Positions 4,196-25,837 are shown, counted from the first letter of the stretch. The stretch is 57,424 bases of DNA from Candidatus Woesearchaeota archaeon (GCA_018698915.1 JABIPN010000006.1:1-57424); one strand, 5' to 3'. The notes: generated by a model not told the origin, from the sequence alone. Numbers and translations are program-made.

Positions 4196-4277
4196 AGTGG
4201 TGCTTCCTATTTAGTTTTATAACTATTATGAAACAAAAGATAAAAGCGCTTATTAATGTTTTCAGTTATGTACTGGC

Positions 4278-5567: not shown

Positions 5568-6394
5568 TTTGCTTTGTGTAGCTTATAAAATATAATGTGA
5601 ATTATATAATCATATACTCTTCGGATTATTTTGTTATTCAAAAGTTTGTTTTTTGATTTGTTTGGATGTATAACAAAAAAATCAGTATCCATGAAAATAT
5701 TTGAATATCCTTTTTCCTGGAAATTTTCACAAATTACTGCCGTGTCACAATCATATTTGTTTAATCTATTGTTGTATGGTGCGAAAGTTAAACCTTGATA
5801 TATTGGCTTTGCATTGTAAATACAAAAACAACTGAATGTTGAATATAGTTTTAATAATCCTTTCTTGAATGTTGAGGGATACCAATATTCAGTAAATTTA
5901 TTTTTTCTAGTTGCCCATTTATCATAAAAGTGATTATTTGAATTTAGAGATACTGGCGAAACTATATCGAAATTATATTTTGAATTAATAACTTTGTTTA
6001 GTAGTTTTGATATTTGTTTGATGTTGTATCTTATATCTGGTTCTATAAAAATTATATAATCATATTTTTCTCGCTTAATTGCTTGATTTATGCACTTGTT
6101 TCTTGCATTTGCAAGATTAATTAAACGTTCGGCTTTTGCAACACTTCCAAAAAATTTTGTGTTTATGTTTTCAGAAGTTACTGTATGTTTCTTTACAAAT
6201 TTGAAATTTAGTTTCTTCAATAATTCCTTGGTTTTATCTGAAGAGTCATTTTCATAAACGGATACTCCAAAATTAATCTCTTTATTTTGTTGGACAAGTT
6301 GTTTTATTTGTGAATGCCAAGTTCTTATTGCATTTTCCTGATTACGCATTATTGTGCATAGTAGTATATTCTTTGATTGCTTTTTCGATATCAT
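5564..6394 (-). CDS. GT-A (GT2-like) glycosyltransferase
   Basis: VYENDSSDKTKELL (nucleotide-sugar binding), LANARNKCI, FIEPD (DxD-like). Start uncertain: the 53-nt overlap with the upstream gene shrinks to 8 nt if Met16 (6349) is used. Confidence 0.5.
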   Translation of the reverse strand: MISKKQSKNILLCTIMRNQENAIRTWHSQIKQLVQQNKEINFGVSVYENDSSDKTKELLKKLNFKFVKKHTVTSENINTKFFGSVAKAERLINLANARNKCINQAIKREKYDYIIFIEPDIRYNIKQISKLLNKVINSKYNFDIVSPVSLNSNNHFYDKWATRKNKFTEYWYPSTFKKGLLKLYSTFSCFCIYNAKPIYQGLTFAPYNNRLNKYDCDTAVICENFQEKGYSNIFMDTDFFVIHPNKSKNKLLNNKIIRRVYDYIIHIIFYKLHKAN

Positions 6395-7532
6395 CTTCTA
6401 GATTATTCATATGTTCTTGTGTAATTAATTGACTGTTTCCAATATATAATCCGTTGTGATGTACAATATCAGAATTTTTAAGAATTGTTTCATTTTCAAA
6501 CTCCCTTAGAAATGGCTGTCTCAATAAATTTCCTGCAATTATTGGTCTAGTTTCGTATCCTTTTGTTTCTAAATAATTACTGAGATATTCTTTAAGTTTG
6601 GCAGTTTTACAAATAAATGGTAAACAAAAACTACTATTTCCTTCTTCTTGAGGTATATGAAATAATTCCAAGTAATTTAGTAACATTTCGCGGAATTGTT
6701 TGTAGTTTTGTCTTCTTATTTTGATTGAATTATCTAAATCTTTAAGTTGTAATTGTCCAAGAAATGCATATAATTCAGTATTTCTAAAATTATATCCGTC
6801 TGTTAAAAATATAAATTGTGGATGTAGTGTTGGATATTTTTCTTGAGTGCTTTTGAATTGTTCCTTTGGAAGTTCCCTTGCTAGACCATGTGAACGTTTA
6901 ATTTTAATTAGATTGTATAGCTCTTTATCATTTGTACAAACCATGCCACCTTCAACCGTAGTCATGTGATGACCAAAATAGAATGAAAATGTTGATCCTG
7001 CGCCCAACGTTCCTGCTTTATTATCTTTAACTGTTGTGCCGTGAGATTCGCAAACGTCTTCTCCAATAATTATTTCTGGATAATATTTTTTAATTGAGTT
7101 TAGGTTTGCAGGCAAACCCAAAAGATGAGTTACGAATGCAAATTTTATTTCAGAGTGTTTTTGTTTTATTTTTTCTATTGATCCTTCATCAGGTCCAAAG
7201 TTATCTAATGAAATATCATAAAAAATAGGCGTTAAATTATTTTGGATTATTGGTGAAATTGAAGTTACCCATGTATTTGCAGGTACTAACACTTTATCAC
7301 CGTCTTTCAAATTATATCTTTCTTTTATTGCTGCTACCAAAACATAATTTGCAGTGCTTCCCGAAGTTACGAATACTGAATATTTTGTTCCTAGCCATTT
7401 GGACCATTGATCTTCAAATTCTTTTACTTGTGGACCTTGAGTATATCTTGTAGTTGATAGAATGAATTTTGCCAAATCCATTCGTTGATTTTCGGTGATG
7501 ATTTCACCCATTAGTGGCCAATGATATTTCAT
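6342..7532 (-). CDS. DegT/DnrJ/EryC1-family PLP/PMP enzyme of the sugar 3-dehydratase type (ColD-like GDP-4-keto-6-deoxy-D-mannose 3-dehydratase)
   Basis: Fold-type I sugar aminotransferase blocks (FVTSGSTANY, GEDVCESHG). The Schiff-base lysine position is His: SFYFG-H188-HMTTVEGG (codon 6969-6971). ATGA-type overlap with gmd immediately upstream. Confidence 0.7.
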   Translation of the reverse strand: MKYHWPLMGEIITENQRMDLAKFILSTTRYTQGPQVKEFEDQWSKWLGTKYSVFVTSGSTANYVLVAAIKERYNLKDGDKVLVPANTWVTSISPIIQNNLTPIFYDISLDNFGPDEGSIEKIKQKHSEIKFAFVTHLLGLPANLNSIKKYYPEIIIGEDVCESHGTTVKDNKAGTLGAGSTFSFYFGHHMTTVEGGMVCTNDKELYNLIKIKRSHGLARELPKEQFKSTQEKYPTLHPQFIFLTDGYNFRNTELYAFLGQLQLKDLDNSIKIRRQNYKQFREMLLNYLELFHIPQEEGNSSFCLPFICKTAKLKEYLSNYLETKGYETRPIIAGNLLRQPFLREFENETILKNSDIVHHNGLYIGNSQLITQEHMNNLEDDIEKAIKEYTTMHNNA

Positions 7533-8485
7533 TTTTCCAATTTTAGATCATTGTCAACCATTTCTATAATCAAATCTTTAAATGTTTTTTTTGGTTTCCA
7601 ATTTAATATTTTTTCAGCTTTTGAAGCATCTGCGAGCAGTATTTCAACTTCGGCAGGTCTAAAGAATTTTGGATCTACAACTACATAATCTTTGTAATTT
7701 AATCCTATATGATTAAATGCAGTTTCAACCATTGTTCTTACTGAGTTTGAAATTCCTGTTCCGATTACGAAATCTTCAGGTTTATCTTGTTGCATCATTA
7801 ACCACATTGCTTCAACATAATCTCGTGCATGTCCCCAATCTCTCTCTGCATCAAGATTTCCAAGTCTTAATTCTTTCTGCTTTCCATATTTTATACGTGC
7901 AACAGCTTTTGTTACTTTTCTGGTTACAAATTCCTCACCTCTTCTTGGTGATTCATGATTGAATAATATTCCTGATACACAAAACATTCCATAACTTTCA
8001 CGATAATTTTGTGTTATCCAATGAGCAAAACATTTTGCTACACCATAAGGGCTTCGTGGATGTAGTTGTGTTGATTCATCTTGTGGTGTTGTTTTTACTT
8101 TTCCAAACATTTCACTGCTGGATGCTTGATAGTATTTAATCTTTGGATTAACTTGTCTTATTGCTTCAAGAACTCTTAATGCTCCCAGGGCGGTTACATT
8201 TCCAGTATATTCTGGTTGACCCCATGAAGAACCAACAAATGATTGTGCTGCCAGATTGTAGATTTCATCAGGATTAGACTCTTTTATTGCTGCAATAATT
8301 GATGCTTGATCTAATAAATCGCCATTAATTAATTCAATTTTATCAAGAATCTGAGTTATATTTCTTCGCTCTCTTGAACTATTTCTTCGTTCTAGACCAT
8401 AAACTTTGTATCCTTTTTCGAGAAGAAATTCTGCAAGATAAGAACCGTCTTGTCCAGTAATTCCAGTTATAAGTGCTGTTTTCAT
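7529..8485 (-). CDS. gmd: GDP-mannose 4,6-dehydratase
   Basis: TGITGQDGSYLAEFLLEKGY Rossmann N-terminus, SSSEMFG, YGVAKCF catalytic Tyr-x3-Lys, NHESPRRG. 318 aa, colinear with Gmd. Confidence 0.9.
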   Translation of the reverse strand: MKTALITGITGQDGSYLAEFLLEKGYKVYGLERRNSSRERRNITQILDKIELINGDLLDQASIIAAIKESNPDEIYNLAAQSFVGSSWGQPEYTGNVTALGALRVLEAIRQVNPKIKYYQASSSEMFGKVKTTPQDESTQLHPRSPYGVAKCFAHWITQNYRESYGMFCVSGILFNHESPRRGEEFVTRKVTKAVARIKYGKQKELRLGNLDAERDWGHARDYVEAMWLMMQQDKPEDFVIGTGISNSVRTMVETAFNHIGLNYKDYVVVDPKFFRPAEVEILLADASKAEKILNWKPKKTFKDLIIEMVDNDLKLEK

Positions 8486-8577
8486 CTCAGTTGGTGACGC
8501 ATGTGGATTTAAAAGTTTAATTAAACTAAGTTCGATAAAAGATAATTTGCTAAAATTTATAAGTCTTAGATTATTTC

Positions 8578-9462
8578 GTGAATTGTGAGTTATATTTCAA
8601 TATGAAAATTTTGAGCTATTTTCCTGAAAAATCAGGTATAGGTAAGTTTGTTAGAAATTTTGCAGATAGAAATAATATTGAAGTTGTTAATTTGTATGGA
8701 CAATATAGTTGGTTTTTTCGTTTATTACATATTTTTGGTTTATCGCGTGCTGAATTTCCGGCAGATGAATATATACTGGCTGCGCCACTTCTTTCAAGAA
8801 TACAAGGTGTTGATATTTATGGTTGTGTGATTCATGACTATTTTCCCCTTCAATCTCGTAATTTTTTGAAGAGTATATTTTATTCCTGGCTGTATTATCC
8901 TAGTAGTAAAAGTGAGATGTTTTATTGTAATTCTGAATATACTAAAAAACTTGTTCTTGAGTTATATGATGTATCTAAATCAATTGTTAAGGTTGTTAAT
9001 TATGATTTGAATGAAAAATATAAAAAGGGAAATAAAAATAAGAAATTTACCGTATTATCCGTTGGTTCTACAGACAAACGTAAGAATTTATTATTTCAGT
9101 TGAAGATTGTTGGTGATTTGCAACAATATATTGATTTGAAATTTGTTAGAGTTGGTGGATTAAAGTGGTATCATAAAATATATATTAATATTCGTAAAAT
9201 TGATGTTGAACAAAAAATTAACTTGTCTGAGAAACGTTTAATTGGTGAATATCAGAAAGCACACGTATTTATTTTTCCATCAACTGCAGAAGGTCATGGC
9301 TTACCTGCGGATGAAGCAAAAGTTTGTGGTTGTGAAGTATTTGTTGGTGATAATACTGCTTTGAAATATCTGGAATTGCCAAATAAAAATAAATTAAAAT
9401 TGAACCACGATTTATGGGTAAAAACGATTATAGGACATTATTTCAGAAAGTTTAAAAATTAA
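8578..9462 (+). CDS. GT-B glycosyltransferase (GT4/GT1 family)
   Basis: FPSTAEGHGLPADEAKVCGCEVF (E-x7-E). The ORF opens with GTG at 8578 and the first ATG is at 8602. A TATA-like AAAATTTATA lies at 8552-8561. Confidence 0.65.
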   Translation: MNCELYFNMKILSYFPEKSGIGKFVRNFADRNNIEVVNLYGQYSWFFRLLHIFGLSRAEFPADEYILAAPLLSRIQGVDIYGCVIHDYFPLQSRNFLKSIFYSWLYYPSSKSEMFYCNSEYTKKLVLELYDVSKSIVKVVNYDLNEKYKKGNKNKKFTVLSVGSTDKRKNLLFQLKIVGDLQQYIDLKFVRVGGLKWYHKIYINIRKIDVEQKINLSEKRLIGEYQKAHVFIFPSTAEGHGLPADEAKVCGCEVFVGDNTALKYLELPNKNKLKLNHDLWVKTIIGHYFRKFKN

Positions 9463-9478
9463 ATCTTGAGAATTAATT

Positions 9479-10564
9479 ATGAAGAAGTCAATTTTTCTGA
9501 ATTTTGCATATGGATATGGTCCTTTCTTAAGGGCATTAGATATTGCAGCTGAATTTAATAAAATCCTTATCTCAAAGGGTTATGAACCTTTTAACATTGT
9601 TTCACCTTTGGTTTATGGATCTCGACAAATCCAAATTGCAAAGGAGAGCCATCCTGAATTAGAAATAAAATTTGATGTTGATACTGGAGCTGTATTGAAT
9701 AAAATTTTCTATAAAGGTAAGAACTATTCTGAGAATTTAAAATTAATTTCTGAGAATTATTTTAAAGTTGAAAAGGAATTTAATGTTGTGGTTGAAAAAT
9801 TGATTTCTGAAGAAAATGTCGTTATGGAAATTAGTAGAAATCCGCGTATTTTGTCTCCAATTCCTCTATCATATAGTAGTGTTATGGGTTTATTTTCTGA
9901 ATTCTTGCAAAAATCAGTCAACAAAGGTATGTTTTCAGGAAATCATGTTGATAAATGTATTAAAATTGCAAAGCGGATAGAAAATTCACAGACTAAAATA
10001 TTTGTTTCTGAACCAAAAAGTTTAGGTATTGAGGAATTATGTGTTTCAGTTCCGTTTATTGGAACTGATGTTGAGGTTGATCAATCCTCAATTGAAGAAG
10101 GGGTTTATTTTTACAAATCTGGAATTAATGAACTGGATTATTTAAATATTGATTTTGGAAAATTTAAGGTTTATGATTCAGATAAAGATCCTGTTAAAAT
10201 TAAATTTAATAAAAATATTATAGGTATTGTTGCGCGTGCAGGATGGGGAACTATTTCAAATAGTGTAATTTTAAACAAACCGTTGATTGTTTTTCCATAT
10301 TCTGAAGGTGATGATCCTGAGATCTTTTTTAATGTTGAAGTTTTAAAGGACTTAGATATCGCAGCAATATATGATTCTGCTTTAAGTTTTAGTGAAAATT
10401 TGGATATTGCAATTTCAAAATTACCAAATATGTGTTCCTTCAAAAATCAAATATTGATTAAATATGGTATGTTGAATGGGTCGAGATATTGTGCAGAAGT
10501 TATGTTTTTTGATATGCATAATGTCGATCGATTTTTAAGATTTAGTGACAAGGAGGTCTTGTGA
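9479..10564 (+). CDS. GT-B-fold glycosyltransferase-like protein (GT28/MurG/PseG-like C-terminal domain)
   Basis: VARAGWGTISNSVILNKPLIVFPYSEGDDPE resembles the GT28 C-domain. N-terminal FAYGYGPF glycine-rich loop. Weak, motif-level call. Confidence 0.35.
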   Translation: MKKSIFLNFAYGYGPFLRALDIAAEFNKILISKGYEPFNIVSPLVYGSRQIQIAKESHPELEIKFDVDTGAVLNKIFYKGKNYSENLKLISENYFKVEKEFNVVVEKLISEENVVMEISRNPRILSPIPLSYSSVMGLFSEFLQKSVNKGMFSGNHVDKCIKIAKRIENSQTKIFVSEPKSLGIEELCVSVPFIGTDVEVDQSSIEEGVYFYKSGINELDYLNIDFGKFKVYDSDKDPVKIKFNKNIIGIVARAGWGTISNSVILNKPLIVFPYSEGDDPEIFFNVEVLKDLDIAAIYDSALSFSENLDIAISKLPNMCSFKNQILIKYGMLNGSRYCAEVMFFDMHNVDRFLRFSDKEVL

Positions 10565-11319
10565 AAGTTTTAGCTATTATTCCTGCTCGGGGAGGTTCTA
10601 AGGGTGTTCCTCGTAAGAATGTGAAAAAATTGAACGGTATTCCCTTAATAGCTTATGGTATCTGTTCTGCATTGGGCGCAAAAAAAGTAGATCGTGTTGT
10701 TGTTTCTACTGATGATGATGAAATTTCTGAAGTTAGTAAAAAGTATGGTGCAGAAGTTGTTATACGTCCGCGTGAATTAGCTCAAGATTTGAGTCCTGCA
10801 GAGTCGGGAATGCAACATGTAGTAAAAACTCTGGAGAGTGAAGGTTGGATTCCAGATCTAATAATCTTGGTTCAGTGTACTTCTCCTTTTAGATTAAGTA
10901 AGCATATCGATGATGCAATTGATATGTTGATTAATAATAAATTTACTGGAATTGCTTCAGTTTCTGAAACTCCTGGACATTTTCATCCATATAAAATTAA
11001 AGAAGTAAAAAATGATGGAGAATTGGTTTCGATGATTCAAGAAGATGGAATGAAAAACAAAATTATTGAATCACATAAATATAAAGTACGTCAAGATTTA
11101 CCTGGAATTTATTATTGGATGAATGGTGCAGTTTATGTTTCTACATACAATACTTTGATGAATGATGGAGATCGTTATGGTGTTCGCTGCGGTGCTCAAA
11201 TATTAGATGGTACTACTTTAGCAAATATAGACTCTGAAGAAGATTTTGAATTTGCACAGAAATTAATAGATGAGGGAAAAATTCAACTAGATTTTGAATT
11301 AGTTGAAATAAATTCATGA
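10561..11319 (+). CDS. neuA: CMP-nonulosonate (N-acylneuraminate) cytidylyltransferase
   Basis: IIPARGGSKGVPRKNVKKLNGIPLIAY is the CTP_transf_3/NeuA N-terminal signature. GTG start in GTGA overlap with the upstream ORF, ATGA overlap with neuB. Confidence 0.8.
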   Translation: MKVLAIIPARGGSKGVPRKNVKKLNGIPLIAYGICSALGAKKVDRVVVSTDDDEISEVSKKYGAEVVIRPRELAQDLSPAESGMQHVVKTLESEGWIPDLIILVQCTSPFRLSKHIDDAIDMLINNKFTGIASVSETPGHFHPYKIKEVKNDGELVSMIQEDGMKNKIIESHKYKVRQDLPGIYYWMNGAVYVSTYNTLMNDGDRYGVRCGAQILDGTTLANIDSEEDFEFAQKLIDEGKIQLDFELVEINS

Positions 11320-12287
11320 TGGCTACAATAATTGCAGAATTATGTCAAAATCACAATGGTGATAAAAAACTGTTGAGTGAAATGATCTCTGCTGCTGCCG
11401 AGGCAGGAGCAGACTATGTAAAAGTACAATCTATGCTTGCTTCAGAAATTACTTATCGGGAACGATTTGAAGAAGGTGTAGTTGATATTGATGGTGTTAA
11501 ACAATCTATACTTCGTCCATATCAAGCAGAAGTCGATAGATTAGCTCCAATGGATTTAAGTGATGACGACTTTAAATGGTTTATAGATGAATGTAGAAAT
11601 TTTGGTGTGGAACCGATGACTACTATTTTTACTCGTCAAAGAATTCCTTTTCTTTCGAGTTTAGGTATGAAAGCGGTTAAAGTTGCCAGTTATGATTGCA
11701 GTGCACATCAGATGGTTCAGGATTTGAGAGATAATTTTGATCATTTAGTTGTTTCTACAGGTGCAAGTTATAATCATGAAATTGAAAAAACTGTGGAGTT
11801 GCTTAAAGGTACAAGTTATGATTTGCTTCATTGTGTTACTATTTATCCAACACCTATGAACGAATTACATTTGAATCGGATGAATTATCTTAGACAATTT
11901 ACGCCTACTGTTGGTTTCTCAGATCATTCGTTAGTTGAACGAGATGGAATTGATGCTTCAATTTTAGCATTGGGGCAAGGTGCGGATGTTATTGAGCGAC
12001 ATTTTACAATTCAAGATGCCAAATCTTCAAGAGATGGTCCAGTTTCAATTAATTCTGAAGAATTGAAACGTTTAGTTGAATTTGGGAAAAGGAGTCCTGA
12101 GGAAATTATGGATTATGTTCATAAAAATATTCCAAATTGGGAAGTTGGACTTGGTCAAGAACAAAGAGCTATGAGTCCTGAAGAATTACTAAATCGTGAT
12201 TATTATCGTGGACGCTTTGCGAGTATGGTTAATGGTGAACCTGTTTATAATTGGGAGACGAATTGGAAACTCGAAGAACTAGTGTAA
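11316..12287 (+). CDS. neuB: NeuB-family nonulosonic acid (sialic-acid-type) synthase
   Basis: IIAELCQNHNGD..AAEAGADYVKVQ, VSTGA, GFSDHS and ERHFT match the NeuB/PseI/LegI TIM-barrel blocks. The C-terminal SAF/antifreeze-like domain looks short or degenerate. Confidence 0.75.
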   Translation: MMATIIAELCQNHNGDKKLLSEMISAAAEAGADYVKVQSMLASEITYRERFEEGVVDIDGVKQSILRPYQAEVDRLAPMDLSDDDFKWFIDECRNFGVEPMTTIFTRQRIPFLSSLGMKAVKVASYDCSAHQMVQDLRDNFDHLVVSTGASYNHEIEKTVELLKGTSYDLLHCVTIYPTPMNELHLNRMNYLRQFTPTVGFSDHSLVERDGIDASILALGQGADVIERHFTIQDAKSSRDGPVSINSEELKRLVEFGKRSPEEIMDYVHKNIPNWEVGLGQEQRAMSPEELLNRDYYRGRFASMVNGEPVYNWETNWKLEELV

Positions 12288-12949
12288 ATTGTGAAACCTT
12301 GATCTTTGATTGGGATGGTACGTTAGTTAATTCATTAGATATGAAAATTGAAAATGCTGGCGAGTTGTTTAATAATTTCTTTGGCTATTCTTCAGAATTA
12401 GTTGAGAAAGCATATCGGCAACATTCAGGCGTTCCCAGACGCATTCTTTTTGATGCTATCTCAAACTCTGTTGGAAATCGAGATTTGACTGATTTGGAAT
12501 ATTTTGAAATTAGTTGTGCATTTACTGAATTGAATTTGTTTAACTTGAATAAAACTCATTTGTTCCGTGACACAGTTTCTACATTAGATTATTTGAACAC
12601 TTGTGGTTTGAATTTATTTGTTTCTAGTTCTGCAACTCCAGAAGATGTTGTTGCGTCTGCTGAACATCTGGGAATATATGATAAATTTGTCAATGTATTT
12701 GGTTCTGTTAATGGTTTTGGTAAGGGTCAAGAACATATATCATATATTTTAAATAAATATGATTTAAATCGAGAAAATATAGTTATGGTTGGTGATGAAC
12801 GTGCGGATGTGATGCTTGCAAAAATGGCCAATGTTTATAGTGTTGCAAAAAGAGGTTCTTTGGAAGAGAATGAATTAAATGAATTAAATCCTGATTTGAT
12901 TATAAATTCGCTTTCAGAATTGTCAAAATTGGTCAAAACTGAGTCCTGA
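12251..12949 (+). CDS. HAD-superfamily phosphatase (C1-capped)
   Basis: Motif I FDWDGTLV, motif II VSSS, motif IV VGDERAD, with a cap insert between I and II. Start uncertain (ATG 12251 overlaps neuB by 37 nt; in-frame TTG at 12299). Confidence 0.6.
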   Translation: MGDELETRRTSVNCETLIFDWDGTLVNSLDMKIENAGELFNNFFGYSSELVEKAYRQHSGVPRRILFDAISNSVGNRDLTDLEYFEISCAFTELNLFNLNKTHLFRDTVSTLDYLNTCGLNLFVSSSATPEDVVASAEHLGIYDKFVNVFGSVNGFGKGQEHISYILNKYDLNRENIVMVGDERADVMLAKMANVYSVAKRGSLEENELNELNPDLIINSLSELSKLVKTES

Positions 12950-14635
12950 ATAAAATACATTATCTTGTGAAATACTTTCTTTTGTGAAAATGTGCCAAGT
13001 ATCTAAGAATAGTAAAGGTTTGTTGCTAGTCTTTATTAATGAATTTATATCTAGATCCATATATTTTTTATTATTGTTAAGTATTGCAACTATATCTGCA
13101 TCTTTGAAACCTTCTTCTGGTGTTGCGGTATTTATTCCTAATTGTTTTAATTCATCTGAGTTGGCAATCGGATCATAACCATATATATTTTTGAATCCTT
13201 TCTGTTTTAATATGTTGAAAATATCTATTGATGTTGAATCTCGTAAATCTGAAGTTTCTGGTTGACCTTTAAATGCTAAGCCTAATAAGAATATCTTTGG
13301 GTTTGTTTTATTTGTCTTGTTTGAGAATTGTTCAATTTTATTTGCAACATGGTGTGGTAATTTGTCATTAATTTTTCGAGCTGCAAGTGCTAATATTGAC
13401 GTGTCCTTTGAAGCATTTGAATATATGTATGGGTCTTTCCTTAAACATAACCCTCCCACTCCTGGACTTGCAAAGGGAATTTTGTTACGTTTATAACCAT
13501 CATTTGCTGATTTCACAACCCGATCTACATCCATATTGTGTTCAGCACAAATTAGTGCTAGTTCATTTGAGAATGCAAAGCTAATATCTCTAAACGTATT
13601 ATTAATTAATTTTGCCATCTCTGCTTCTTCTAAATTATTTGTTGATACAATGTGTGGTGATAATTTCCTGAAAAAATCAGATATATTGCTAAGACTTGTT
13701 GTGTTATATGCACCAATTATTTGTGGCAAGGAATTTAGTTCTTCTATGGCCTTTCCTTCGATTGTTCGTTCTGGTGCAAATGCGAGATAGAAATCTATAC
13801 CACATATTAATCCTGATTCCTTTTCAAGTATTGGTAAAACAGTATTTCTGCAAGTTCCAACTGGAACTGTTGATCTTAATATTATTGAATCTCCTTTTTT
13901 GATTACTTTTGCGAGTGATTTTGCTGCACTTTCCACCATGTGGAGTTCGGGTTTATTTTCATTATTTACTGGTGTTCCTACTGAGATTATATATATGTCG
14001 GCCATATCTGGAACTAATTTATTAGTGACTTGAAAATTGTTGTGAATGTGTTTAGTTAGTAGTGAATCAATCCCTCGCTCATAAAAGGTTAACTTTCCTT
14101 TCGATAGTTGTTCAATTTTGTGTTTATCGATATCATATCCTATTACTTTGAATCCTTTATCTGCAAGTACCAAACTTAACGTTAATCCCACATATCCTGT
14201 ACCTAAAATACATACTCGTTTTGTTTTTGTGTTTGATAATTTCCAAATATCATAAAAAGATATTATGTCTTGAGGTGTTCCGTCTTCGTTTATAAGTAAT
14301 ATTTGATTTACTTTTTTACTTCTTATTCTTCCTTCTTTATTTGCTAACTCTATTTGTGAAATTATTTCTGCAGACATATTTTTAATATTTTCAGAATTTT
14401 TCAGATGTACTGGATTGGTAATCATGATGTTTTCAACAGGATCGTTCAATGTTTTACCTTTTAGTAATGCACGCCTTATATCTCCATCAGTTACTACACC
14501 TAACAATTTATTATTTTTACCTGTAATAATTACAATTCCTGTTGGTAATTTTTTTGGTCCGGCAGAAGTCATTACGATCATGGCTTCTTTTATTGTTGTA
14601 TTTTTGTCAATAGTTATCTCGGAAATATTTGACAT
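12923..14635 (-). CDS. CBS-pair domain fused to a UDP-sugar 6-dehydrogenase-family enzyme (WecC/UDP-ManNAc or UDP-GlcNAc dehydrogenase-like)
   Basis: N-terminal ~140 aa CBS pair (GVVTDGDIRRALL). Then the GTGYVGLTLSLVLADKG Rossmann, catalytic Cys motif GVGGLCLRKD, and C-terminal LGLAFKGQPETSDLRDS UDP-binding domain. Confidence 0.75.
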   Translation of the reverse strand: MSNISEITIDKNTTIKEAMIVMTSAGPKKLPTGIVIITGKNNKLLGVVTDGDIRRALLKGKTLNDPVENIMITNPVHLKNSENIKNMSAEIISQIELANKEGRIRSKKVNQILLINEDGTPQDIISFYDIWKLSNTKTKRVCILGTGYVGLTLSLVLADKGFKVIGYDIDKHKIEQLSKGKLTFYERGIDSLLTKHIHNNFQVTNKLVPDMADIYIISVGTPVNNENKPELHMVESAAKSLAKVIKKGDSIILRSTVPVGTCRNTVLPILEKESGLICGIDFYLAFAPERTIEGKAIEELNSLPQIIGAYNTTSLSNISDFFRKLSPHIVSTNNLEEAEMAKLINNTFRDISFAFSNELALICAEHNMDVDRVVKSANDGYKRNKIPFASPGVGGLCLRKDPYIYSNASKDTSILALAARKINDKLPHHVANKIEQFSNKTNKTNPKIFLLGLAFKGQPETSDLRDSTSIDIFNILKQKGFKNIYGYDPIANSDELKQLGINTATPEEGFKDADIVAILNNNKKYMDLDINSLIKTSNKPLLFLDTWHIFTKESISQDNVFYSGLSFDQF

Positions 14636-14679: not shown

Positions 14680-16104
14680 TCAGTTGTTGTCCGTAGAATT
14701 AATTATTTTGTTTATTACGTCAGTGGTTGACTTTCCTTCAACCAGTTTTACTATCTTTACTTCTCCACCATATTTGTGAACTGTTTTTGTTTCTGGTAAA
14801 TCTTCGGCGTTGTAATCTCCACCTTTAACATGAATGTTTGGTTGAAGTTGGTTGAGTAATTCTTCTGGTGTGTCTTCGTCAAATAGCACAACATAATCTA
14901 CTGTAGCTAAGTTTGCTACTATCTCTGCACGTTCTTTTTGATTATTGATTGGTCTATTATCTCCTTTGCGTCGTTTTGTTGAACTGTCAGCATTTATTGC
15001 TAAAATTAAAATATCTCCGAAAGATTTTGCTTTGTTGAGTAGCCGTATGTGTCCAACATGTAATATATCATATATTCCGTTTGTTGTGACTATTTTATTT
15101 CCTTTAGCTTTTAGTTTCTGAACAATTTGTAATAGTTCTTCTCTTGTTTTTATTTTTGAATTAATACCCTTGAACGAAGATTTTAACTCAGTTAAAGTGA
15201 GTGTTGCAGTTCCGAATTTACCGACCACAATGCCTGCCGCTTGATTGGCAATTTGTGTTGCTTCGTATAATTCTGCTTTCGATGCTAATGCGAGAGTTAA
15301 GATTGCAATAAATGTGTCTCCTGCTCCCGAAACATCATATACTTCACGTGCTTTTGCAGGTAAATGATTGTATTCGTTATTTTCTTTATTATAGGATGAT
15401 GTTCCGTTTGGCCCTTGTGTGATTATTACATTAGTATTGTATTTCTCTGATATTATTTTTGACAGTGTTTCAGGATTTGAGTTTGAGTTCGTTATTTCTT
15501 GCGCCTCTTTTGTGTTTGGAGTAACTACAAATACATTTTTGAATAAATTTATTGTATTTGGTTTAGGATCTACAATAATCAATATATTTAATTTTTTCAG
15601 TTCTTCAACTAATTCTTTTGTAATCATTCCTTTGTCATAATCCGATAATAGAATCATATCAAATTGATTTGATTTTATGAATTCAATAATCTTTGTAACG
15701 TGTTTTGATTTCAAAGGTTTTGGATCTTCGAAATCTACTCTCAACGCTTGCTGGTTCTGTGCAACTAAGCGAGTTTTCTTTATTGTTGTGAAATCGTTTC
15801 TCTCGATTAGAAATGTGTTTATGTTTGCTTTCTTGAACAGCTCTAGCATTGGCTCTTTAAATTTATCATTTCCAACTTGTCCAATTACTGTGCACTTTGC
15901 TCCTAGTGCTGCAACGTTGTTTGCAGTGTTTGCTGCGCCACCGAGTCGGTGTTCTCTGTTGTTGTTTGAAACGTTGAGTACTGGCACGGGTGCTTCAGGA
16001 TTGATTCGGTTTATGTTTCCGAACAAGTATTCATCAAGAATTAAATCTCCGATTACAAGTATATGTTTCTTTGGGAATTCCTGAATGGTTTCAATTAGTT
16101 TCAT
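14680..16104 (-). CDS. hldE: Bifunctional D-beta-D-heptose 7-phosphate kinase / D-beta-D-heptose 1-phosphate adenylyltransferase
   Basis: N-terminal pfkB/ribokinase-like domain (GGAANTANN, DVSGAGDTF). C-terminal cytidylyltransferase-like domain (TNGIYDILHVGHIRLL). 474 aa, RfaE/HldE architecture. Confidence 0.85.
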   Translation of the reverse strand: MKLIETIQEFPKKHILVIGDLILDEYLFGNINRINPEAPVPVLNVSNNNREHRLGGAANTANNVAALGAKCTVIGQVGNDKFKEPMLELFKKANINTFLIERNDFTTIKKTRLVAQNQQALRVDFEDPKPLKSKHVTKIIEFIKSNQFDMILLSDYDKGMITKELVEELKKLNILIIVDPKPNTINLFKNVFVVTPNTKEAQEITNSNSNPETLSKIISEKYNTNVIITQGPNGTSSYNKENNEYNHLPAKAREVYDVSGAGDTFIAILTLALASKAELYEATQIANQAAGIVVGKFGTATLTLTELKSSFKGINSKIKTREELLQIVQKLKAKGNKIVTTNGIYDILHVGHIRLLNKAKSFGDILILAINADSSTKRRKGDNRPINNQKERAEIVANLATVDYVVLFDEDTPEELLNQLQPNIHVKGGDYNAEDLPETKTVHKYGGEVKIVKLVEGKSTTDVINKIINSTDNN

Positions 16105-16681
16105 TTACTTTGTAGATTACGTGATCAATTAACTCACACCAAATATGTATTATGTTGATGTGAGCTTCCTGTATTCGTGCGGTTGTGTTTGATGGAATAA
16201 TTAAATTTGAATCTAAATTTAGTTCACTCATTGTTCCGCCAGACCTTCCATTGAGACAGATTGTTTTTAATCCTCTTTCCTTTGCGATTTCGAATGCTTT
16301 GTGGACATTCTTTGAGTTTCCAGAGGTTGTGATTCCGACCAATACATCTCCTGGTTTTCCCAATCCTTCAACTTGTCTTGAGAAAACATAGTCATAGCCA
16401 TAATCGTTTGATGCTGCAGTTACTGCTGATACGTTAGAAGAGAGTGCAATCGCCGGAATGCTTGGTCTCTCTTTGTTGTAGCGAATTACTAACTCTGCTG
16501 CGAAGTGTTGTGCATCTGCTGCTGAACCTCCATTTCCACAAGTTATTATTTTGTTTCCATTTTTCACAGCCTCGAGAATTAGTTCTCCCGCCTCGACTAT
16601 TTGATTTAGATATTTACCGTCCAATAGTTTTTGTTTTGTTTCAATTGATTCCTCTATAAATTCTCTTGCTATATTTTTCAT
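16091..16681 (-). CDS. gmhA: Sedoheptulose-7-phosphate (phosphoheptose) isomerase
   Basis: SIS domain: ITCGNGGSAADAQHFAAELV, GITTSGNSKN. 196 aa. Overlaps hldE (14 nt) and the GT9 gene (4 nt). Confidence 0.85.
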   Translation of the reverse strand: MKNIAREFIEESIETKQKLLDGKYLNQIVEAGELILEAVKNGNKIITCGNGGSAADAQHFAAELVIRYNKERPSIPAIALSSNVSAVTAASNDYGYDYVFSRQVEGLGKPGDVLVGITTSGNSKNVHKAFEIAKERGLKTICLNGRSGGTMSELNLDSNLIIPSNTTARIQEAHINIIHIWCELIDHVIYKVNETN

Positions 16682-17829
16682 CTTTTGGTTCTCCTTTTTT
16701 GTTTGTATATTAACTTTTCAGCGTTTCGAAATACCTCATTAACAGTGATTTTCTCCATCCAGTTTTGTGTGGGTCGTTTGAAACTTCCTAAATGTGGATT
16801 AATAACTGGTGTTTCTTTTGATTTGTAAAGTGAGAGGTTGTTTTTCCCGTATGGTGCATATCTTACTGGTGTATTCGGTCCAAACAGTCCAATCGTTTCG
16901 GTTCCTTGTGCTGCTGCAATGTGTAGCGGTCCAGTATCGTTTGAAATGTAAATGTTACACTTTTCTGTGAGTTTGAATAGTTGTTTTAGTGAGAATTTTC
17001 CTGCGAGATTGTAAACGAACTCTTTTTGTTCCATTTGATTGATTATTCTTTCAATGTAGTTTCGTTGGTTTTGTATGTCCGGCATTAGAATGATTGCATT
17101 GTGTTTTTTGATTAGTTTGTCTGCAAGTTGTGCAAATTTATGTGGTGACCATCGTCGCCAGGTTGCAGTACCTGCACTTGTTACTGTCATTCCAATTATT
17201 GGTCTGTGTTTTGGAAGTTTATTGAAAAAGTTGTTTACTTTTCTTTTGTCTGATTTTGAGTATTTTAATGTTATTAGTTTATCTGGTACTTTTGGTTTTA
17301 TTTCTAGAGGTTTGAGTAAATTTAGAAATGTGTTGACTGCATGAATTTTGTCGTTGTAATAGACAAGTTGGTCATATAACTTTGCCCGTGGACCGTGTGA
17401 AAATCCAATTGTTTTCTGTGAAAGATAGTTTGATAGTAATGCTGAGAGTTTTAGATAAGGTTCTAAGTCAAATGCTAAGTCATATTTCTTATATTGTTTT
17501 GTGAGCGTTAGTATGTTGTGTAGTTCAAGTAACTCTATGTTGTCAATGAAGGGTTGATTCTCATATACTGCTTTGTTTTGATTCCGGCATAAAATTGTAA
17601 CTTTTGTATTTGGATAGTTTTGTTTGAATTGTTTAATTAATGGTAAAGTTAGTACTGATTCACCAATGGCCCATAGTTTTGTGAATAGAACTTCTTCCGG
17701 AACTGCGTTCCTTCGTCTCTTCAAAAGTGAGAGTGCATTGATTAGTGGAGTTCCAATTGTTTTGTCTATTCCTCGTTGTAAACTAAGCATTTTGTATTTT
17801 ATTTGCTGCATCAAGCAAATCCTCTGCAA
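16678..17829 (-). CDS. GT9-family glycosyltransferase (ADP-heptose-dependent heptosyltransferase-like)
   Basis: ISNDTGPLHIAAAQGTETIGLFGP is the GT9 (WaaC/WaaF-type) C-terminal signature. It sits inside the heptose operon. Start may be Met14 (17790), reducing the overlap with gmhB. Confidence 0.75.
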   Translation of the reverse strand: MQRICLMQQIKYKMLSLQRGIDKTIGTPLINALSLLKRRRNAVPEEVLFTKLWAIGESVLTLPLIKQFKQNYPNTKVTILCRNQNKAVYENQPFIDNIELLELHNILTLTKQYKKYDLAFDLEPYLKLSALLSNYLSQKTIGFSHGPRAKLYDQLVYYNDKIHAVNTFLNLLKPLEIKPKVPDKLITLKYSKSDKRKVNNFFNKLPKHRPIIGMTVTSAGTATWRRWSPHKFAQLADKLIKKHNAIILMPDIQNQRNYIERIINQMEQKEFVYNLAGKFSLKQLFKLTEKCNIYISNDTGPLHIAAAQGTETIGLFGPNTPVRYAPYGKNNLSLYKSKETPVINPHLGSFKRPTQNWMEKITVNEVFRNAEKLIYKQKRRTKR

Positions 17830-18310
17830 TAAATGTTGGATTTGAGTTGGATTCTGGATCTTTCTCGGAGCTTCCTGTTGTTACGAGCACAGATTTTAGT
17901 CCAGCGTTGTTTGCAAGTTCAATGTCTGAAGATCTGTCACCGATAACATATGAGTTAGCCTTATCAAAGTCGGGTGTGAAATAGGGTTCAATTAGTTTTG
18001 TTTTGGGTTTTCTACAGTCGCATTCTTTTTGTGGAGTGTGTGGACAGAATAGAACTTTGTCTATGTTGATATTTTCTTGTTTCAATTCATTAATTAAGTG
18101 ATTGTTGAATTCATGCATTTGATCTTCAGTATAGTATCCTCTTCCGATTCCTGATTGATTTGTTACAATTATTAGTTTGTATCCTTGCGATTGTAGCTTT
18201 TTTAGACCGTTACTTGTGTTTGGTAGAAGGTTGTAATCTCCCACTTTGTTTGTGTATCCGTCGTCCTTATTTAACGTTCCATCTCGGTCTAGAAATATAA
18301 TTTTATTCAT
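17783..18310 (-). CDS. gmhB: D,D-heptose 1,7-bisphosphate phosphatase (HAD-IIIA)
   Basis: FLDRDGTLN, VTNQSGIGRG, Zn-site CPH..C.CRKPK, GDRSSD. 175 aa. Confidence 0.8.
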   Translation of the reverse strand: MNKIIFLDRDGTLNKDDGYTNKVGDYNLLPNTSNGLKKLQSQGYKLIIVTNQSGIGRGYYTEDQMHEFNNHLINELKQENINIDKVLFCPHTPQKECDCRKPKTKLIEPYFTPDFDKANSYVIGDRSSDIELANNAGLKSVLVTTGSSEKDPESNSNPTFIAEDLLDAANKIQNA

Positions 18311-18329
18311 GGACTGACTTGGTAAGTGG

Positions 18330-18337
18330 TTTAAAAA
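18330..18337 (-). promoter_or_regulatory. TATA-like box for the gmhB-GT9-gmhA-hldE operon
   Basis: TTTTTAAA on the minus strand, 20-27 nt upstream of the gmhB ATG (18310). Same spacing as at many other starts in this window. Confidence 0.4.
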
Positions 18338-18354
18338 TGTTTATGAAACAAGAA

Positions 18355-25183: not shown

Positions 25184-25204
25184 ACTAAATTCATTATGAT
25201 GATG

Positions 25205-25212
25205 TTTAAATA
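25205..25212. promoter_or_regulatory. Single quasi-symmetric TATA element shared by two divergent genes
   Basis: TTTAAATA lies 22-29 nt from the DP2 ATG (25183, minus) and 20-27 nt from the ATG at 25232 (plus). Confidence 0.45.
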
Positions 25213-25231
25213 TGATTGTGTGAAAAAGTAT

Positions 25232-25570: not shown

Positions 25571-25718
25571 GCCCTTGATTTCTACTGGAGATTTCATTTT
25601 TATATTAAATTTCATTTTTTCTCTTCTTTCTTTTCTATATTGAAAATAATAATATAATAATAAACAAATTTGATAAAAATATAAACAATAAAATAAGTTC
25701 TATAAGAAATAAAGGGGT
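25570..25718. other. Predicted chromosomal replication origin (two inverted ORB-like boxes flanking an AT-rich unwinding element)
   Basis: 25570-25591 reads TCTCCAGTAGAAATCAAGGGCT on the minus strand. 25697-25718 reads GTTCTATAAGAAATAAAGGGGT on the plus strand. Between them is ~105 bp at about 10% G+C by hand count. The orc1/cdc6 ATG lies 120 bp downstream. Confidence 0.6.
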
Positions 25719-25837
25719 AGGAGGTATTCAAAACAATCATACGTCAAAAGTACAAGCCTTAAGTATAGTGCTTTTATAAAAATATTAGCGTGTCAAGAGG
25801 ATAAATTATTTTAAGGTACATTTCTTATGGAAAGTTT

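What the first reader, a model, noticed from the sequence alone, without database searches (positions are those of the whole stretch)
14680..18310. ADP-heptose pathway plus a GT9 heptosyltransferase as one tightly overlapped operon in an archaeon
gmhB, a GT9 glycosyltransferase, gmhA and bifunctional hldE follow each other on the minus strand with 4- to 47-nt overlaps, behind one TATA box (18330-18337). This is the bacterial route to ADP-D-glycero-beta-D-manno-heptose. No HldD epimerase is present here, so the D,D-heptose form is expected. That route normally feeds the LPS inner core through GT9 enzymes, and an archaeon has no lipid A/Kdo acceptor. The acceptor must therefore be something else: an S-layer or pilin protein, or a lipid-linked glycan. 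One precedent is the bacterial autotransporter heptosyltransferases, which are related to LPS heptosyltransferases and O-heptosylate proteins. The module looks like a bacterial acquisition.
Basis: partly seen in the sequence, partly recalled or inferred. Interest (0 to 1): 0.65.

Follow-up and report, generated by a model that had tools for sequence, protein, structure and literature searches.

The report
Archaeal heptose operon in N-glycosylation island
A marine DPANN archaeon carries a four-gene operon that makes the bacterial-type sugar ADP-heptose and includes its own heptose-transferring enzyme, sitting at the end of a gene island that begins with the protein N-glycosylation enzyme AglB, which suggests the heptose ends up on the cell's surface glycoproteins rather than on lipopolysaccharide.

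Summary
gmhB (17783-18310), a GT9 glycosyltransferase (16678-17790), gmhA (16091-16681) and fused hldE (14680-16104) overlap head-to-tail on the minus strand. They sit behind a TATA/BRE block that is 22/22 identical in relatives. The window is archaeal (PolD, Orc1, LonB; SerRS closest to Nanoarchaeota). No HldD lies in the window or in 10 kb beyond either edge.

- This is not an isolated bacterial import. Both GT9 and HldE have their closest named relatives in DPANN archaea only, and the GT9s form a DPANN clade (33-45% identity, against <=30% for bacteria).
- The GT9 resembles LPS heptosyltransferases (3TOV, WaaF, WaaC), not the autotransporter enzymes (TibC).
- The acceptor can be narrowed. 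In 16 of 30 DPANN genome loci the order is AglB-GT2-DUF2304-GT9, usually followed by heptose genes. In the window's own genome AglB lies 5.3 kb left of the window, at the start of the same ~26-kb glycan island.

Best explanation: heptose is added to a lipid-linked glycan destined for AglB.

Prior art exists for ADP-heptose genes in archaea (Yelton 2013; Tang 2024; M. maripaludis 2025). The GT9-AglB link was not found in the papers searched. Interest is moderate.

The parts
18329..18350 (-). Putative BRE/TATA promoter of the heptose operon (TGTTTCATAAACATTTTTAAAC; TATA-like TTTTTAAA at 18337-18330)
   Evidence: Sequence read. The block is 22/22 identical in L001/L002 while the downstream spacer has diverged. 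It ends 19 nt before the ATG, like the TTTWAA elements upstream of other first genes in the window. Function is inferred, not shown.
17783..18310 (-). [quoted passage not shown]
   Evidence: NF006506 scores 169 bits (cut-off 178). The beta-type model scores higher than the alpha-type model NF050049 (114.5 bits). It is 35% identical to E. coli GmhB, with the DxDGT and Zn-Cys motifs aligned.
16678..17790 (-). GT9 glycosyltransferase, DPANN clade (370 aa from ATG 17790; alternative starts ATG 17811 and TTG 17829)
   Evidence: PF01075 scores 110 bits, but the protein is below the HepI/II/III equivalog cut-offs. The AF2 model has pLDDT 94. Best folds are 3TOV, WaaF and WaaC. Donor-site residues are conserved. 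There are 614 relatives at E<=1e-10, and all named ones are DPANN.
16091..16681 (-). gmhA: sedoheptulose-7-phosphate isomerase (SIS domain)
   Evidence: TIGR00441 scores 214.6 bits, above the cut-off of 209.45. It is 44% identical to E. coli GmhA.
14680..16104 (-). hldE: fused heptose-7-P kinase (PfkB) and heptose-1-P adenylyltransferase; the C-terminal motif is LVEGKSTT
   Evidence: NF008454 scores 449 bits, and domain II scores 195.5, above its cut-off of 181.5. It is 37% identical to E. coli HldE over 474 aa, with the GAGD and HxGH motifs aligned. The STTR5 position holds Lys, not Arg.
12923..14635 (-). CBS-pair fused to an NDP-sugar 6-dehydrogenase, immediately downstream of hldE; probably its own transcription unit
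   Evidence: TIGR03026 scores 358 bits. A conserved block GTTCCACAAAyAATATAAA lies about 22 nt upstream, and no oligo-T run follows hldE. The adjacency is conserved in L001/L002.
218..12949 (.). Rest of the surface-glycan island inside the window: Wzx/MOP flippase, GT4, KpsC-like protein, GT2, DegT aminotransferase, Gmd, GT1, CMP-ulosonate cytidylyltransferase, NeuB-like synthase, HAD phosphatase. The island continues left of position 1 to AglB, at window coordinates about -7837 to -5333
   Evidence: Pfam and NCBIfam results. Locus L089 (GCA_018661765.1, JABJHQ010000023.1) is 100% identical to the window over 11,696 nt. To the left it carries STT3/AglB, two SDRs, an AglJ-like GT2, a GtrA-like protein and a PpgS-like GT2.

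Best explanation
The four genes form one transcription unit. [quoted passage not shown] The product is handed directly to the co-encoded GT9 enzyme.

The GT9 is a soluble or peripheral GT-B enzyme of the LPS-heptosyltransferase type. It most likely adds heptose, on the cytoplasmic face of the membrane, to a dolichyl-phosphate-linked oligosaccharide built by the neighbouring glycosyltransferases. That glycan is then flipped (a Wzx-like flippase lies at 218-1696) and transferred by AglB to surface proteins such as S-layer proteins or type IV pilin-like proteins.

Status of each step:
- Shown by sequence: the identity of the pathway enzymes, the GT9 fold and donor-site residues, the operon structure, and the linkage to AglB.
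- Inferred: the donor actually used, the lipid-linked acceptor, the D,D configuration of the heptose, and the final protein targets.
For: Pathway identity.

GT9 fold and residues:
- The AF2 model has pLDDT 94.
- Foldseek top hits are 3TOV, WaaF and WaaC.
- WaaC D13, K192, D261, T262, G263 and H266 align to E44, R212, D285, T286, G287 and H290. The last five are invariant or nearly so in the clade.

Operon: gene overlaps plus a conserved promoter block.

Linkage across DPANN:
- The GT9 lies within 8 kb of at least one heptose gene in 16/30 DPANN/CPR genome loci and in 5/5 loci L001-L005, against 10/49 bacterial loci.
- 16/30 loci (14 of the 20 with at least 4 kb of upstream sequence), plus L003, show AglB-GT2-DUF2304-GT9 on one strand. 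None of the 49 bacterial loci does.
- L003 also has an S-layer gene next to AglB.

In the window's own genome, AglB, two Dol-P-sugar-synthase-like GT2s and a GtrA-like protein lie immediately left of the window, in the same island. A prepilin peptidase gene (50784-51614) shows that pilin-like substrates exist.

Chemical precedent: a heptose occurs in the Thermoplasma N-glycan (PMC11407970, PMC12448462). Earlier genomic hypotheses point the same way (PMC3750248).
Against: - There is no biochemistry for any DPANN GT9.
- In the window itself the GT9 is about 22 kb from AglB, not adjacent to it.
- The island also holds a Wzx-type flippase and a KpsC-like gene, which would fit a polysaccharide that is not protein-linked.
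- No initiating phosphoglycosyltransferase was seen in the island.
- The catalytic Asp of WaaC is Glu here, and WaaC E222 is Gln in the window protein.
- GT9 scores are below every HepI/II/III equivalog cut-off.
- The heptose in Thermoplasma is a galacto- isomer, not a manno- isomer.
- The DPANN clade has only moderate NJ bootstrap support: 49% exact, about 71% if one extra contig is allowed.
Confidence: 0.55

Rival explanations
1. The heptose goes into a surface polymer that is not attached to protein by AglB, such as a capsule-like polysaccharide, lipoglycan or glycolipid. It would be assembled on a lipid carrier and exported through the Wzx-type flippase.
For: The window part of the island has a MOP/Wzx flippase, a KpsC-like Capsule_synth protein (PF05159; weak hit to KpsC 6MGD) and a CMP-ulosonate module. 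These are typical of bacterial capsule or O-antigen loci. The GT9 is not adjacent to AglB in this lineage.
Against: AglB bounds the same island. The orthologous GT9s in most other DPANN sit directly beside AglB. The capsule-like genes accompany the GT9 only in this lineage.
Confidence: 0.25
2. The GT9 heptosylates a protein directly (O-heptosylation), like the bacterial autotransporter heptosyltransferases TibC/AAH, as the first reader suggested as a precedent.
For: GT9 relatives with protein acceptors do exist (TibC, 4RAP/4RB4). TibC appears in the fold search at E~1e-7.
Against: No sequence hit to TibC at E<0.01. The TM-score is 0.57 against 0.67-0.78 for LPS-type enzymes. The window protein has no Cys cluster. 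There is no adjacent substrate gene. Linkage to AglB and Dol-P GT2 genes points to lipid-linked assembly.
Confidence: 0.05
3. ADP-heptose is made for another purpose (a free metabolite, or a precursor of a modified sugar or natural product), and the GT9 uses a different donor.
For: The CAZy GT9 family is not exclusively made of heptosyltransferases (own knowledge). The GT9 falls below the equivalog cut-offs. It carries D13E and E222Q substitutions relative to WaaC.
Against: The GT9 is translationally coupled inside the heptose operon (4- and 8-nt overlaps). GT9-heptose linkage recurs in many different gene orders across DPANN phyla. The heptose-contacting D285-T-G and H290 are invariant.
Confidence: 0.08
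4. The module is a recent bacterial transfer, an assembly chimera or bin contamination.
For: The four genes have the four highest GC3 values of the 45 window genes. The enzymes are of bacterial type.
Against: The arrangement, flanked by archaeal core genes, recurs on two dozen independent contigs from different samples and sources. The nearest relatives are DPANN. The GC3 signal is absent in L001. Identity to relatives tracks SerRS.
Confidence: 0.02

Closest known systems
[quoted passage not shown]
   Same: The enzyme families and reaction order are the same. HldE is fused with PfkB-type kinase and cytidylyltransferase-like domains. Identity is 35-44% over full length. The GT9 has the same GT-B fold and conserved donor-site residues.
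   Different: No HldD is present locally. The GT9 is only 18-25% identical to WaaC/F/Q and below all HepI/II/III cut-offs. Its catalytic base is Glu, not Asp. The host is an archaeon with no Kdo2-lipid A acceptor. The genes form one operon inside an AglB island, instead of being scattered or placed in a waa cluster.
3TOV, GT9 protein of Veillonella parvula (structural-genomics entry, function unassigned)
   Same: It is the best match by both sequence and structure: E=3.6e-21 by sequence, and TM 0.75-0.83 at 22% identity by structure.
   Different: It is a bacterial protein from a diderm Firmicute, it is uncharacterised, and it gives no acceptor information.
Previously noted archaeal ADP-heptose gene clusters: 'Iplasma' (Yelton 2013, PMC3750248), M. 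maripaludis KA1/JJ (PMC12667266), and the archaeal heptose biosynthetic enzymes assayed by Tang et al. 2024 (via PMC11461863, PMC11573728)
   Same: These are archaeal genomes encoding the ADP-heptose route inside glycan-biosynthesis regions, with S-layer glycosylation proposed as the role. KA1 also pairs a sialic-acid-like module with the heptose module, as this window does.
   Different: None of the texts read mentions a heptosyltransferase, GT9 or linkage to AglB. The commentary states that the role of heptose in archaea 'remains elusive'. Here the transferase is inside the operon and belongs to a DPANN-wide clade.
Bacterial autotransporter heptosyltransferases (TibC/AAH, BAHT family)
   Same: They are GT9-related, use ADP-heptose, and have a non-LPS acceptor.
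   Different: They are much more distant (TM 0.57; no sequence hit). BAHTs are iron-binding dodecamers acting on proteins (entry titles of 4RAP/4RB4). The window protein lacks the Cys cluster.
Thermoplasma/Cuniculiplasma N-glycan containing D-glycero-D-galacto-heptose
   Same: It shows chemically that an AglB-type archaeal N-glycan can carry a heptose (PMC11407970, PMC12448462).
   Different: The heptose isomer is different, the phylum is different, and the biosynthetic genes are not defined in the papers read.
GDP-D-glycero-alpha-D-manno-heptose route for S-layer glycans of Gram-positive bacteria (GmhA, HddA, GmhB, HddC; Aneurinibacillus thermoaerophilus; own knowledge, cited in PMC3750248)
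   Same: Heptose is destined for an S-layer glycoprotein rather than for LPS.
   Different: That route uses a GHMP kinase and a guanylyltransferase and proceeds via the alpha-anomer. The window has the PfkB/ADP beta-type enzymes.

Membership tests
[quoted passage not shown] | SIS-domain sedoheptulose-7-P isomerase GmhA | tested here: met
   TIGR00441 scores 214.6 bits, above the cut-off of 209.45. 44% identity to E. coli GmhA.
[quoted passage not shown] | PfkB-type heptose-7-P kinase domain (beta-anomer route), not a GHMP kinase | tested here: met
   PF00294 scores 149 bits. TIGR02198 scores 323.6 bits, slightly under its equivalog cut-off of 345 but three times the next family (ribokinase, 104 bits). 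The GAGD motif aligns with E. coli.
[quoted passage not shown] | Heptose-1-P adenylyltransferase domain with the HxGH and xSTT motifs | tested here: met
   TIGR02199 scores 195.5 bits, above the cut-off of 181.5. LHVGH and LVEGKSTT are aligned.
[quoted passage not shown] | HAD-IIIA heptose-1,7-bisphosphate 7-phosphatase GmhB | tested here: inconclusive
   NF006506 scores 169.1 bits against a cut-off of 178, and TIGR00213 scores 134.3 against 149.6. The motifs are conserved and identity to E. coli GmhB is 35%. The histidinol-phosphatase domain family also scores well.
[quoted passage not shown] | HldD 6-epimerase (needed for the L,D form) | tested here: not met
   None is found in the window or in 10 kb on either side. 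The rest of the genome could not be searched. HldD is present inside the cluster in L009, L010, L016, L019, L020, L029 and L030.
[quoted passage not shown] | STTR5 motif (F/L)XXGRSTT, which marks NTP-promiscuous enzymes (CDP/UDP-heptose) | tested here: not met
   The window has LVEGKSTT, with Lys rather than Arg. Lys is found in 61 of 82 matched DPANN homologues and Arg in 4. The effect of Lys is unknown.
CAZy GT9 heptosyltransferases | Glyco_transf_9 domain and GT-B fold | tested here: met
   PF01075 scores 110 bits against a cut-off of 22. Foldseek gives TM 0.67-0.83 to 3TOV, WaaF and WaaC.
CAZy GT9 heptosyltransferases | ADP-heptose-site residues of WaaC (K192, D261, T262, G263, H266; residue roles recalled from the WaaC structure papers) | tested here: met
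   They align to R212, D285, T286, G287 and H290. R212, D285, G287 and H290 are invariant across 35 clade members.
CAZy GT9 heptosyltransferases | Catalytic base Asp13 (WaaC numbering) | tested here: inconclusive
   It is replaced by Glu44. Within the clade the position is E in 27, D in 3 and S in 3. In bacteria it is D in 35, S in 6 and E in 5. The change is conservative but untested.
LPS heptosyltransferase I / II / III equivalogs (WaaC, WaaF, WaaQ) | Score above the NCBIfam equivalog cut-off | tested here: not met
   HepIII scores 102.9 against 170.2, HepII 93.3 against 134.6, and HepI 72.9 against 185.3. Identity to the E. coli enzymes is 18-25%.
LPS heptosyltransferase I / II / III equivalogs (WaaC, WaaF, WaaQ) | Kdo2-lipid A or heptosyl-Kdo acceptor | not testable with these tools
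   The host is an archaeon, and archaea are not known to make lipid A (established knowledge). The whole genome was not available to search for lpx/kds genes.
Autotransporter heptosyltransferases (BAHT: TibC/AAH) | Closer to TibC/AAH than to LPS enzymes; Cys-bound iron site; adjacent autotransporter substrate | tested here: not met
   No sequence hit. TM is 0.57 against 0.67-0.78 for LPS-type enzymes. The window protein has no Cys cluster. No such neighbouring gene is present.
Archaeal Agl (AglB-dependent N-glycosylation) gene island | Physical clustering with aglB and dolichyl-phosphate glycosyltransferases | tested here: met
   In the window's own genome an AglB (Pfam STT3) lies about 22 kb from the GT9 in one contiguous glycan island that also holds AglJ-like and PpgS-like GT2s. 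Direct AglB-GT2-DUF2304-GT9 adjacency is seen in 16/30 DPANN loci.
Archaeal Agl (AglB-dependent N-glycosylation) gene island | Heptose present in the Asn-linked glycan; lipid-linked acceptor for the GT9 | not testable with these tools
   This needs glycoproteomics or enzymology.

The most novel reading that the evidence does not exclude
DPANN archaea as a group have recruited an LPS-inner-core-type heptosyltransferase into the AglB pathway, so that manno-heptose is a regular building block of their N-glycans and S-layers. In this marine lineage, the co-located KpsC-like transferase and CMP-ulosonate module would build an inner-core-like heptose-ulosonic acid motif on a dolichol carrier. That would be an archaeal analogue of the Hep-Kdo unit of LPS, displayed on surface proteins that mediate contact with host cells.
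Probability: 0.12. Interest if true: 0.8.

Novelty: new variant of a known kind. Interest (0 to 1): 0.5.

Why it matters
Tang et al. (2024) showed that archaea make ADP-heptose. The authors' own commentary says the reason is unknown (PMC11573728).

This locus, together with the conserved AglB-GT2-DUF2304-GT9 arrangement in Woese-/Nanoarchaeota, gives a concrete and testable answer. A dedicated GT9 clade would feed heptose into N-linked surface glycans.

If correct:
- It extends the GT9 family to a third acceptor class, dolichol-linked glycans, alongside lipid A-Kdo and autotransporter proteins.
- It predicts a diagnostic sugar in the otherwise uncharacterised cell surfaces of DPANN episymbionts.
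- It identifies abundant environmental archaea as sources of an ALPK1-type immune agonist.

Tried and rejected
1. HldD candidates.
- The Gmd at 7529-8485 is a true GDP-mannose 4,6-dehydratase.
- The two SDRs left of the window are generic. Their HldD scores are 77 and 127 bits against a cut-off of 274.6, and they score higher as dTDP-glucose dehydratase.

2. Composition as evidence of transfer.
- Bulk GC is unremarkable.
- GC3 of the four genes is the highest in the window, but this is not reproduced in the syntenic relative L001. I do not use it as evidence.

3. First NJ tree. It was invalid because the distance correction overflowed to NaN. It was repeated with a cap. An earlier Biopython version timed out.

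4. Link between the GT9 and the ulosonic-acid/KpsC-like genes across DPANN. None was found outside the window's own lineage.

5. Naming the organism.
- Cluster look-ups gave no taxon.
- The assembly accession is not in the paper library.
- SerRS places it nearest to 'Nanoarchaeota' at 61%.

6. The 4-Cys cluster as a DPANN or BAHT-like feature. It is common in bacterial GT9s (41/49) and absent from the window protein, so it is uninformative here.

7. Rfam and tRNA scans found only tRNA-Cys and tRNA-Ser, far from the operon.

8. The sigma-70 promoter/terminator scanner was not used, because it does not model archaeal promoters.

Full report
**1. Observation**

The ORF list shows four consecutive minus-strand ORFs:
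- 17783-18310 (175 aa)
- 16678-17829 (383 aa from a TTG start)
- 16091-16681 (196 aa)
- 14680-16104 (474 aa)

Pfam and NCBIfam identify them as follows.
- GmhB: NF006506, 169 bits, cut-off 178.
- A GT9 glycosyltransferase: PF01075, 110 bits.
- GmhA: TIGR00441, 214.6 bits, above the cut-off of 209.45.
- A fused HldE: NF008454, 449 bits. The adenylyltransferase domain TIGR02199 scores 195.5, above its cut-off of 181.5. The kinase domain TIGR02198 scores 323.6, against a cut-off of 345.

Pairwise identity to the E. coli K-12 enzymes is 37% (HldE, full length), 44% (GmhA) and 35% (GmhB). The GAGD, HxGH, xSTT, DxDGT and Cys-Zn motifs are all aligned.

The overlaps are 4 nt (GT9/gmhA) and 14 nt (gmhA/hldE). 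Most homologues are 369-370 aa and align from the ATG at 17790, giving an 8-nt overlap. An ATG at 17811 preceded by GAGGA is a second possibility.

TTTTTAAA lies at 18337-18330 and ends 19 nt upstream of the gmhB ATG. The 22-nt block 18350-18329 is identical in two relatives whose proteins are only 72-82% identical, while the spacer to the ATG has diverged. TTTWAA-type elements at the same distance precede many first genes in the window. This fits an archaeal BRE/TATA promoter driving a leaderless transcript.

The next gene downstream is a CBS-fused NDP-sugar dehydrogenase at 12923-14635. It has its own conserved ATATAAA block, so the heptose unit is probably four genes. No oligo-T terminator follows hldE, however.

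**2. Organism**

The window encodes PolD DP2 and a DP1-like subunit, Orc1/Cdc6, LonB, Cdc48, PolB, RadA, RPA and HerA. It is archaeal. SerRS has its best named hit in 'Nanoarchaeota' at 61%. Closer relatives (64-95%) exist only as unnamed marine metagenome contigs. The window is 100% identical to part of a 113-kb contig of assembly GCA_018661765.1.

**3. The GT9 enzyme**

A search of 5.8 billion proteins found 614 relatives at E<=1e-10. The top 120 are all about 360-390 aa, and every one that carries a name is from Woese-, Aenigm-, Nano- or Undinarchaeota.

In a scan of one genome per GTDB species:
- The best 30 loci are DPANN MAGs plus two CPR Peribacteria, at 33-45% identity. A few MAG titles look wrong.
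- Ordinary bacteria (Poribacteria, Planctomycetota, Omnitrophota, Nitrospirota and others) start at <=30% identity.

A neighbour-joining tree recovers the 35-tip DPANN(+CPR) group. Bootstrap support is 49% for exactly that set and a further 22% when one extra contig joins it. E. coli WaaC, WaaF and WaaQ fall among the bacterial sequences. This is a crude tree and should be repeated with likelihood methods.

Against solved structures:
- By sequence, the protein matches 3TOV (E=3.6e-21), WaaF (1e-12) and WaaC (~3e-3), with no TibC hit.
- An AlphaFold model built from 37 homologues has pLDDT 94 and pTM 0.92.
- Its Foldseek ranking is 3TOV (TM 0.75-0.83), WaaF (0.70), WaaC (0.67), and only then TibC (0.57, E~1e-7).

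In the alignment with WaaC:
- The catalytic Asp13 corresponds to Glu44 (Glu in most clade members).
- Lys192 corresponds to an invariant Arg212.
- Asp261-Thr-Gly and His266 correspond to the invariant Asp285-Thr-Gly287 and His290.
- WaaC Glu222 is Gln in the window protein, though it is Glu in most of the clade.

The protein is below the HepI, HepII and HepIII equivalog cut-offs. It is therefore a bona fide GT9 with an intact donor site, of the LPS-enzyme type, but it is not an orthologue of any characterised heptosyltransferase.

**4. Context, the most informative result**

Close relatives (L001, L002) are fully syntenic with the window, from PolD through the operon to the NeuB module.

In distant DPANN genomes the GT9 still travels with heptose genes, in many different orders:
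- Fused hldE in L003.
- Split kinase and nucleotidyltransferase in L004, L005 and L008-L010.
- At least one heptose gene lies within 8 kb in 16 of 30 DPANN/CPR loci and in all of L001-L005, against 10 of 49 bacterial loci.

The link to AglB is also strong:
- 16 of those 30 loci, plus L003, have the same-strand order STT3/AglB - GT2 - DUF2304 - GT9. That is 14 of the 20 loci with at least 4 kb of upstream sequence.
- None of the 49 bacterial loci has this order.
- L003 adds an S-layer gene and a UbiA prenyltransferase beside AglB.
- L009 reads geranylgeranyl reductase - AglB - GT2 - DUF2304 - GT9 - carbamoyltransferase - gmhA - hldD - kinase - gmhB - nucleotidyltransferase.

The window itself has no STT3, no GT2 of that type and no DUF2304. 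Looking up the window's leftmost protein recovered the flanking DNA of the same genome. About 5.3 kb left of window position 1 lies an 834-aa STT3/AglB. It is followed by an unknown 599-aa protein, two SDRs, an AglJ/Dol-P-hexose-transferase-like GT2, a GtrA-like protein and a PpgS-like GT2. The window then begins with its Wzx flippase.

The heptose operon is thus the right-hand end of a contiguous ~26-kb glycosylation island whose left-hand end is AglB. To the right of the operon come unrelated genes (OB-fold, PRC, TctA, PolD).

**5. Epimerase and nucleotide specificity**

No HldD is present in the window or within 10 kb of either edge. Clear HldD homologues (32-36% identical to E. coli HldD) sit inside the heptose cluster of seven other DPANN loci. 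D,D-heptose is therefore the default prediction for this lineage, pending a whole-genome search.

The HldE C-terminal motif is LVEGKSTT. The Arg that defines the NTP-promiscuous STTR5 class (PMC11573728) is Lys here, and also in 61 of 82 matched DPANN homologues. ADP-heptose is the safe prediction. The effect of Lys is unknown.

**6. Origin**

The enzymes are of bacterial type, and the pathway is far more widespread in bacteria. A bacterial origin at some depth is therefore plausible (inference).

Nothing points to a recent event:
- The nearest relatives of both GT9 and HldE are DPANN.
- On one relative's 79.9-kb contig, SerRS, HldE and GT9 are 87%, 83% and 83% identical to the window.
- Synteny with archaeal core genes is conserved on about two dozen independent contigs.
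- The GC3 excess of the four genes disappears in L001.

The two CPR Peribacteria sequences nested in the DPANN clade suggest exchange between these two groups of small-celled symbionts.

**7. Mechanism proposed**

[quoted passage not shown] The GT9 then transfers the heptose.

LPS heptosyltransferases act at the cytoplasmic face on a lipid-anchored glycan. The archaeal counterpart of that substrate is a dolichyl-(pyro)phosphate oligosaccharide. The linkage to AglB, to Dol-P-sugar-synthase-like GT2s and to a flippase fits that model.

Shown here: gene identities, fold, conserved donor site, operon structure and linkage. Inferred: donor use, acceptor, configuration and final targets.

I put the full model at about 0.55. 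The main rival is a non-protein-linked surface polymer, suggested by the Wzx, KpsC-like and CMP-ulosonate genes of this lineage, at about 0.25. Those genes do not accompany the GT9 in other DPANN.

**8. What is already known**

- Functional ADP-heptose enzymes in archaea were demonstrated by Tang et al. 2024. I read this work through two commentaries. One of them states that the reason archaea make manno-heptose is elusive and recommends neighbour-gene analysis.
- Yelton et al. 2013 noted a complete ADP-L,D-heptose cluster in 'Iplasma' and proposed S-layer glycosylation.
- A 2025 study notes ADP-heptose operons, next to a sialic-acid-like module, in variable glycan regions of M. maripaludis KA1 and JJ.
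- The Thermoplasma/Cuniculiplasma N-glycan contains D-glycero-D-galacto-heptose.

None of these texts mentions a heptosyltransferase or GT9. Searches for DPANN or Woesearchaeota together with heptose or heptosyltransferase found nothing relevant. The library does not cover subscription journals, so absence there is not proof of absence.

**9. Verdict**

It can also be sharpened: an LPS-type GT9 of a DPANN-wide clade that is embedded in, or adjacent to, the AglB N-glycosylation locus.

The pathway in archaea is known. The dedicated transferase and its AglB linkage look like a new variant of a known kind. Interest is moderate (0.5), because this turns an openly stated question into specific experiments but rests entirely on genomic inference.

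Noticed in passing
L009:3279-6662: The AglB/STT3 of this Woesearchaeota-type locus is fused to a C-terminal parvulin-type PPIase (Rotamase domains, 1127 aa). This would combine an oligosaccharyltransferase with a folding catalyst in one protein.
   Followed up: no
window 16678-17790 (GT9 residues ~326-344) and alignment of L001-L085: A four-Cys cluster (C..SPC..C..C) near the C-terminus is present in 41/49 bacterial and 18/35 DPANN GT9s. It is lost in the window protein, in its close relatives and in E. coli WaaC/F/Q. It is probably an ancestral structural metal site that is dispensable.
   Followed up: partly
window 14680-16104 (HldE C-terminus) and P0121-P0240: The position that defines the NTP-promiscuous STTR5 motif is Lys in the window and in 61 of 82 matched DPANN HldE homologues, and Arg in only 4. 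Whether Lys also permits CDP- or UDP-heptose synthesis is unknown.
   Followed up: partly
window 2798-4195 and 10561-12949: A KpsC-like Capsule_synth protein (weak hit to the beta-Kdo transferase KpsC, 6MGD) lies in the same island as a PseF/KdsB-like cytidylyltransferase, a short NeuB-like synthase and an overlapping HAD phosphatase. Together they form a CMP-ulosonic-acid module next to the heptose operon. The pairing is specific to this lineage among the DPANN loci examined, but it echoes the sialic-like plus ADP-heptose pairing described for M. maripaludis KA1.
   Followed up: partly
window 12923-14635: An NDP-sugar 6-dehydrogenase carries an N-terminal CBS pair. This is an unusual regulatory-domain fusion, conserved next to hldE in L001/L002.
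   Followed up: no
L057:1-9047: A Nanoarchaeota MAG has an HldE 59-69% identical to the window's, followed by an HldD 48% identical to E. coli HldD and a divergent GT9 (28%) that lies outside the DPANN clade. This looks like a second, differently sourced heptose module in DPANN.
   Followed up: no
L032, L033: GT9 genes of two CPR Peribacteria MAGs nest inside the DPANN GT9 clade and sit next to gmhA and kinase genes. This hints at gene exchange between CPR bacteria and DPANN archaea.
   Followed up: partly
window 14680-18310: The four operon genes have the four highest GC3 values of the 45 window genes (0.26-0.30 against a mean of 0.206). The same genes in the syntenic relative L001 do not stand out, apart from gmhB.
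   Followed up: yes
L009, L017, L020, L021, L011, L024: The record titles call these MAG contigs 'Methanosarcinales' or 'Bacteroidales'. Yet they carry DPANN-clade GT9 genes, and three of them (L009, L020, L021) carry an archaeal AglB locus of Woesearchaeota type. These are likely taxonomic mislabels or mis-binned contigs.
   Followed up: no
window 25183-25838: Orc1/Cdc6 (25838-27118) lies beside the divergently oriented PolD DP2 and upstream of a DP1-like gene. The intergenic stretch could hold a replication origin. It was not examined.
   Followed up: no
window 4278-5567 and 9479-10564: Two conserved proteins of unknown function lie inside the glycan island. One has a C-terminal thymidylate-kinase-like P-loop domain, and the other has no family hit at all.
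   Followed up: no
window 50784-51614: A type IV prepilin/preflagellin peptidase (Peptidase_A24) is present, so pilin-like surface proteins, which are typical AglB substrates, are made by this organism.
   Followed up: no
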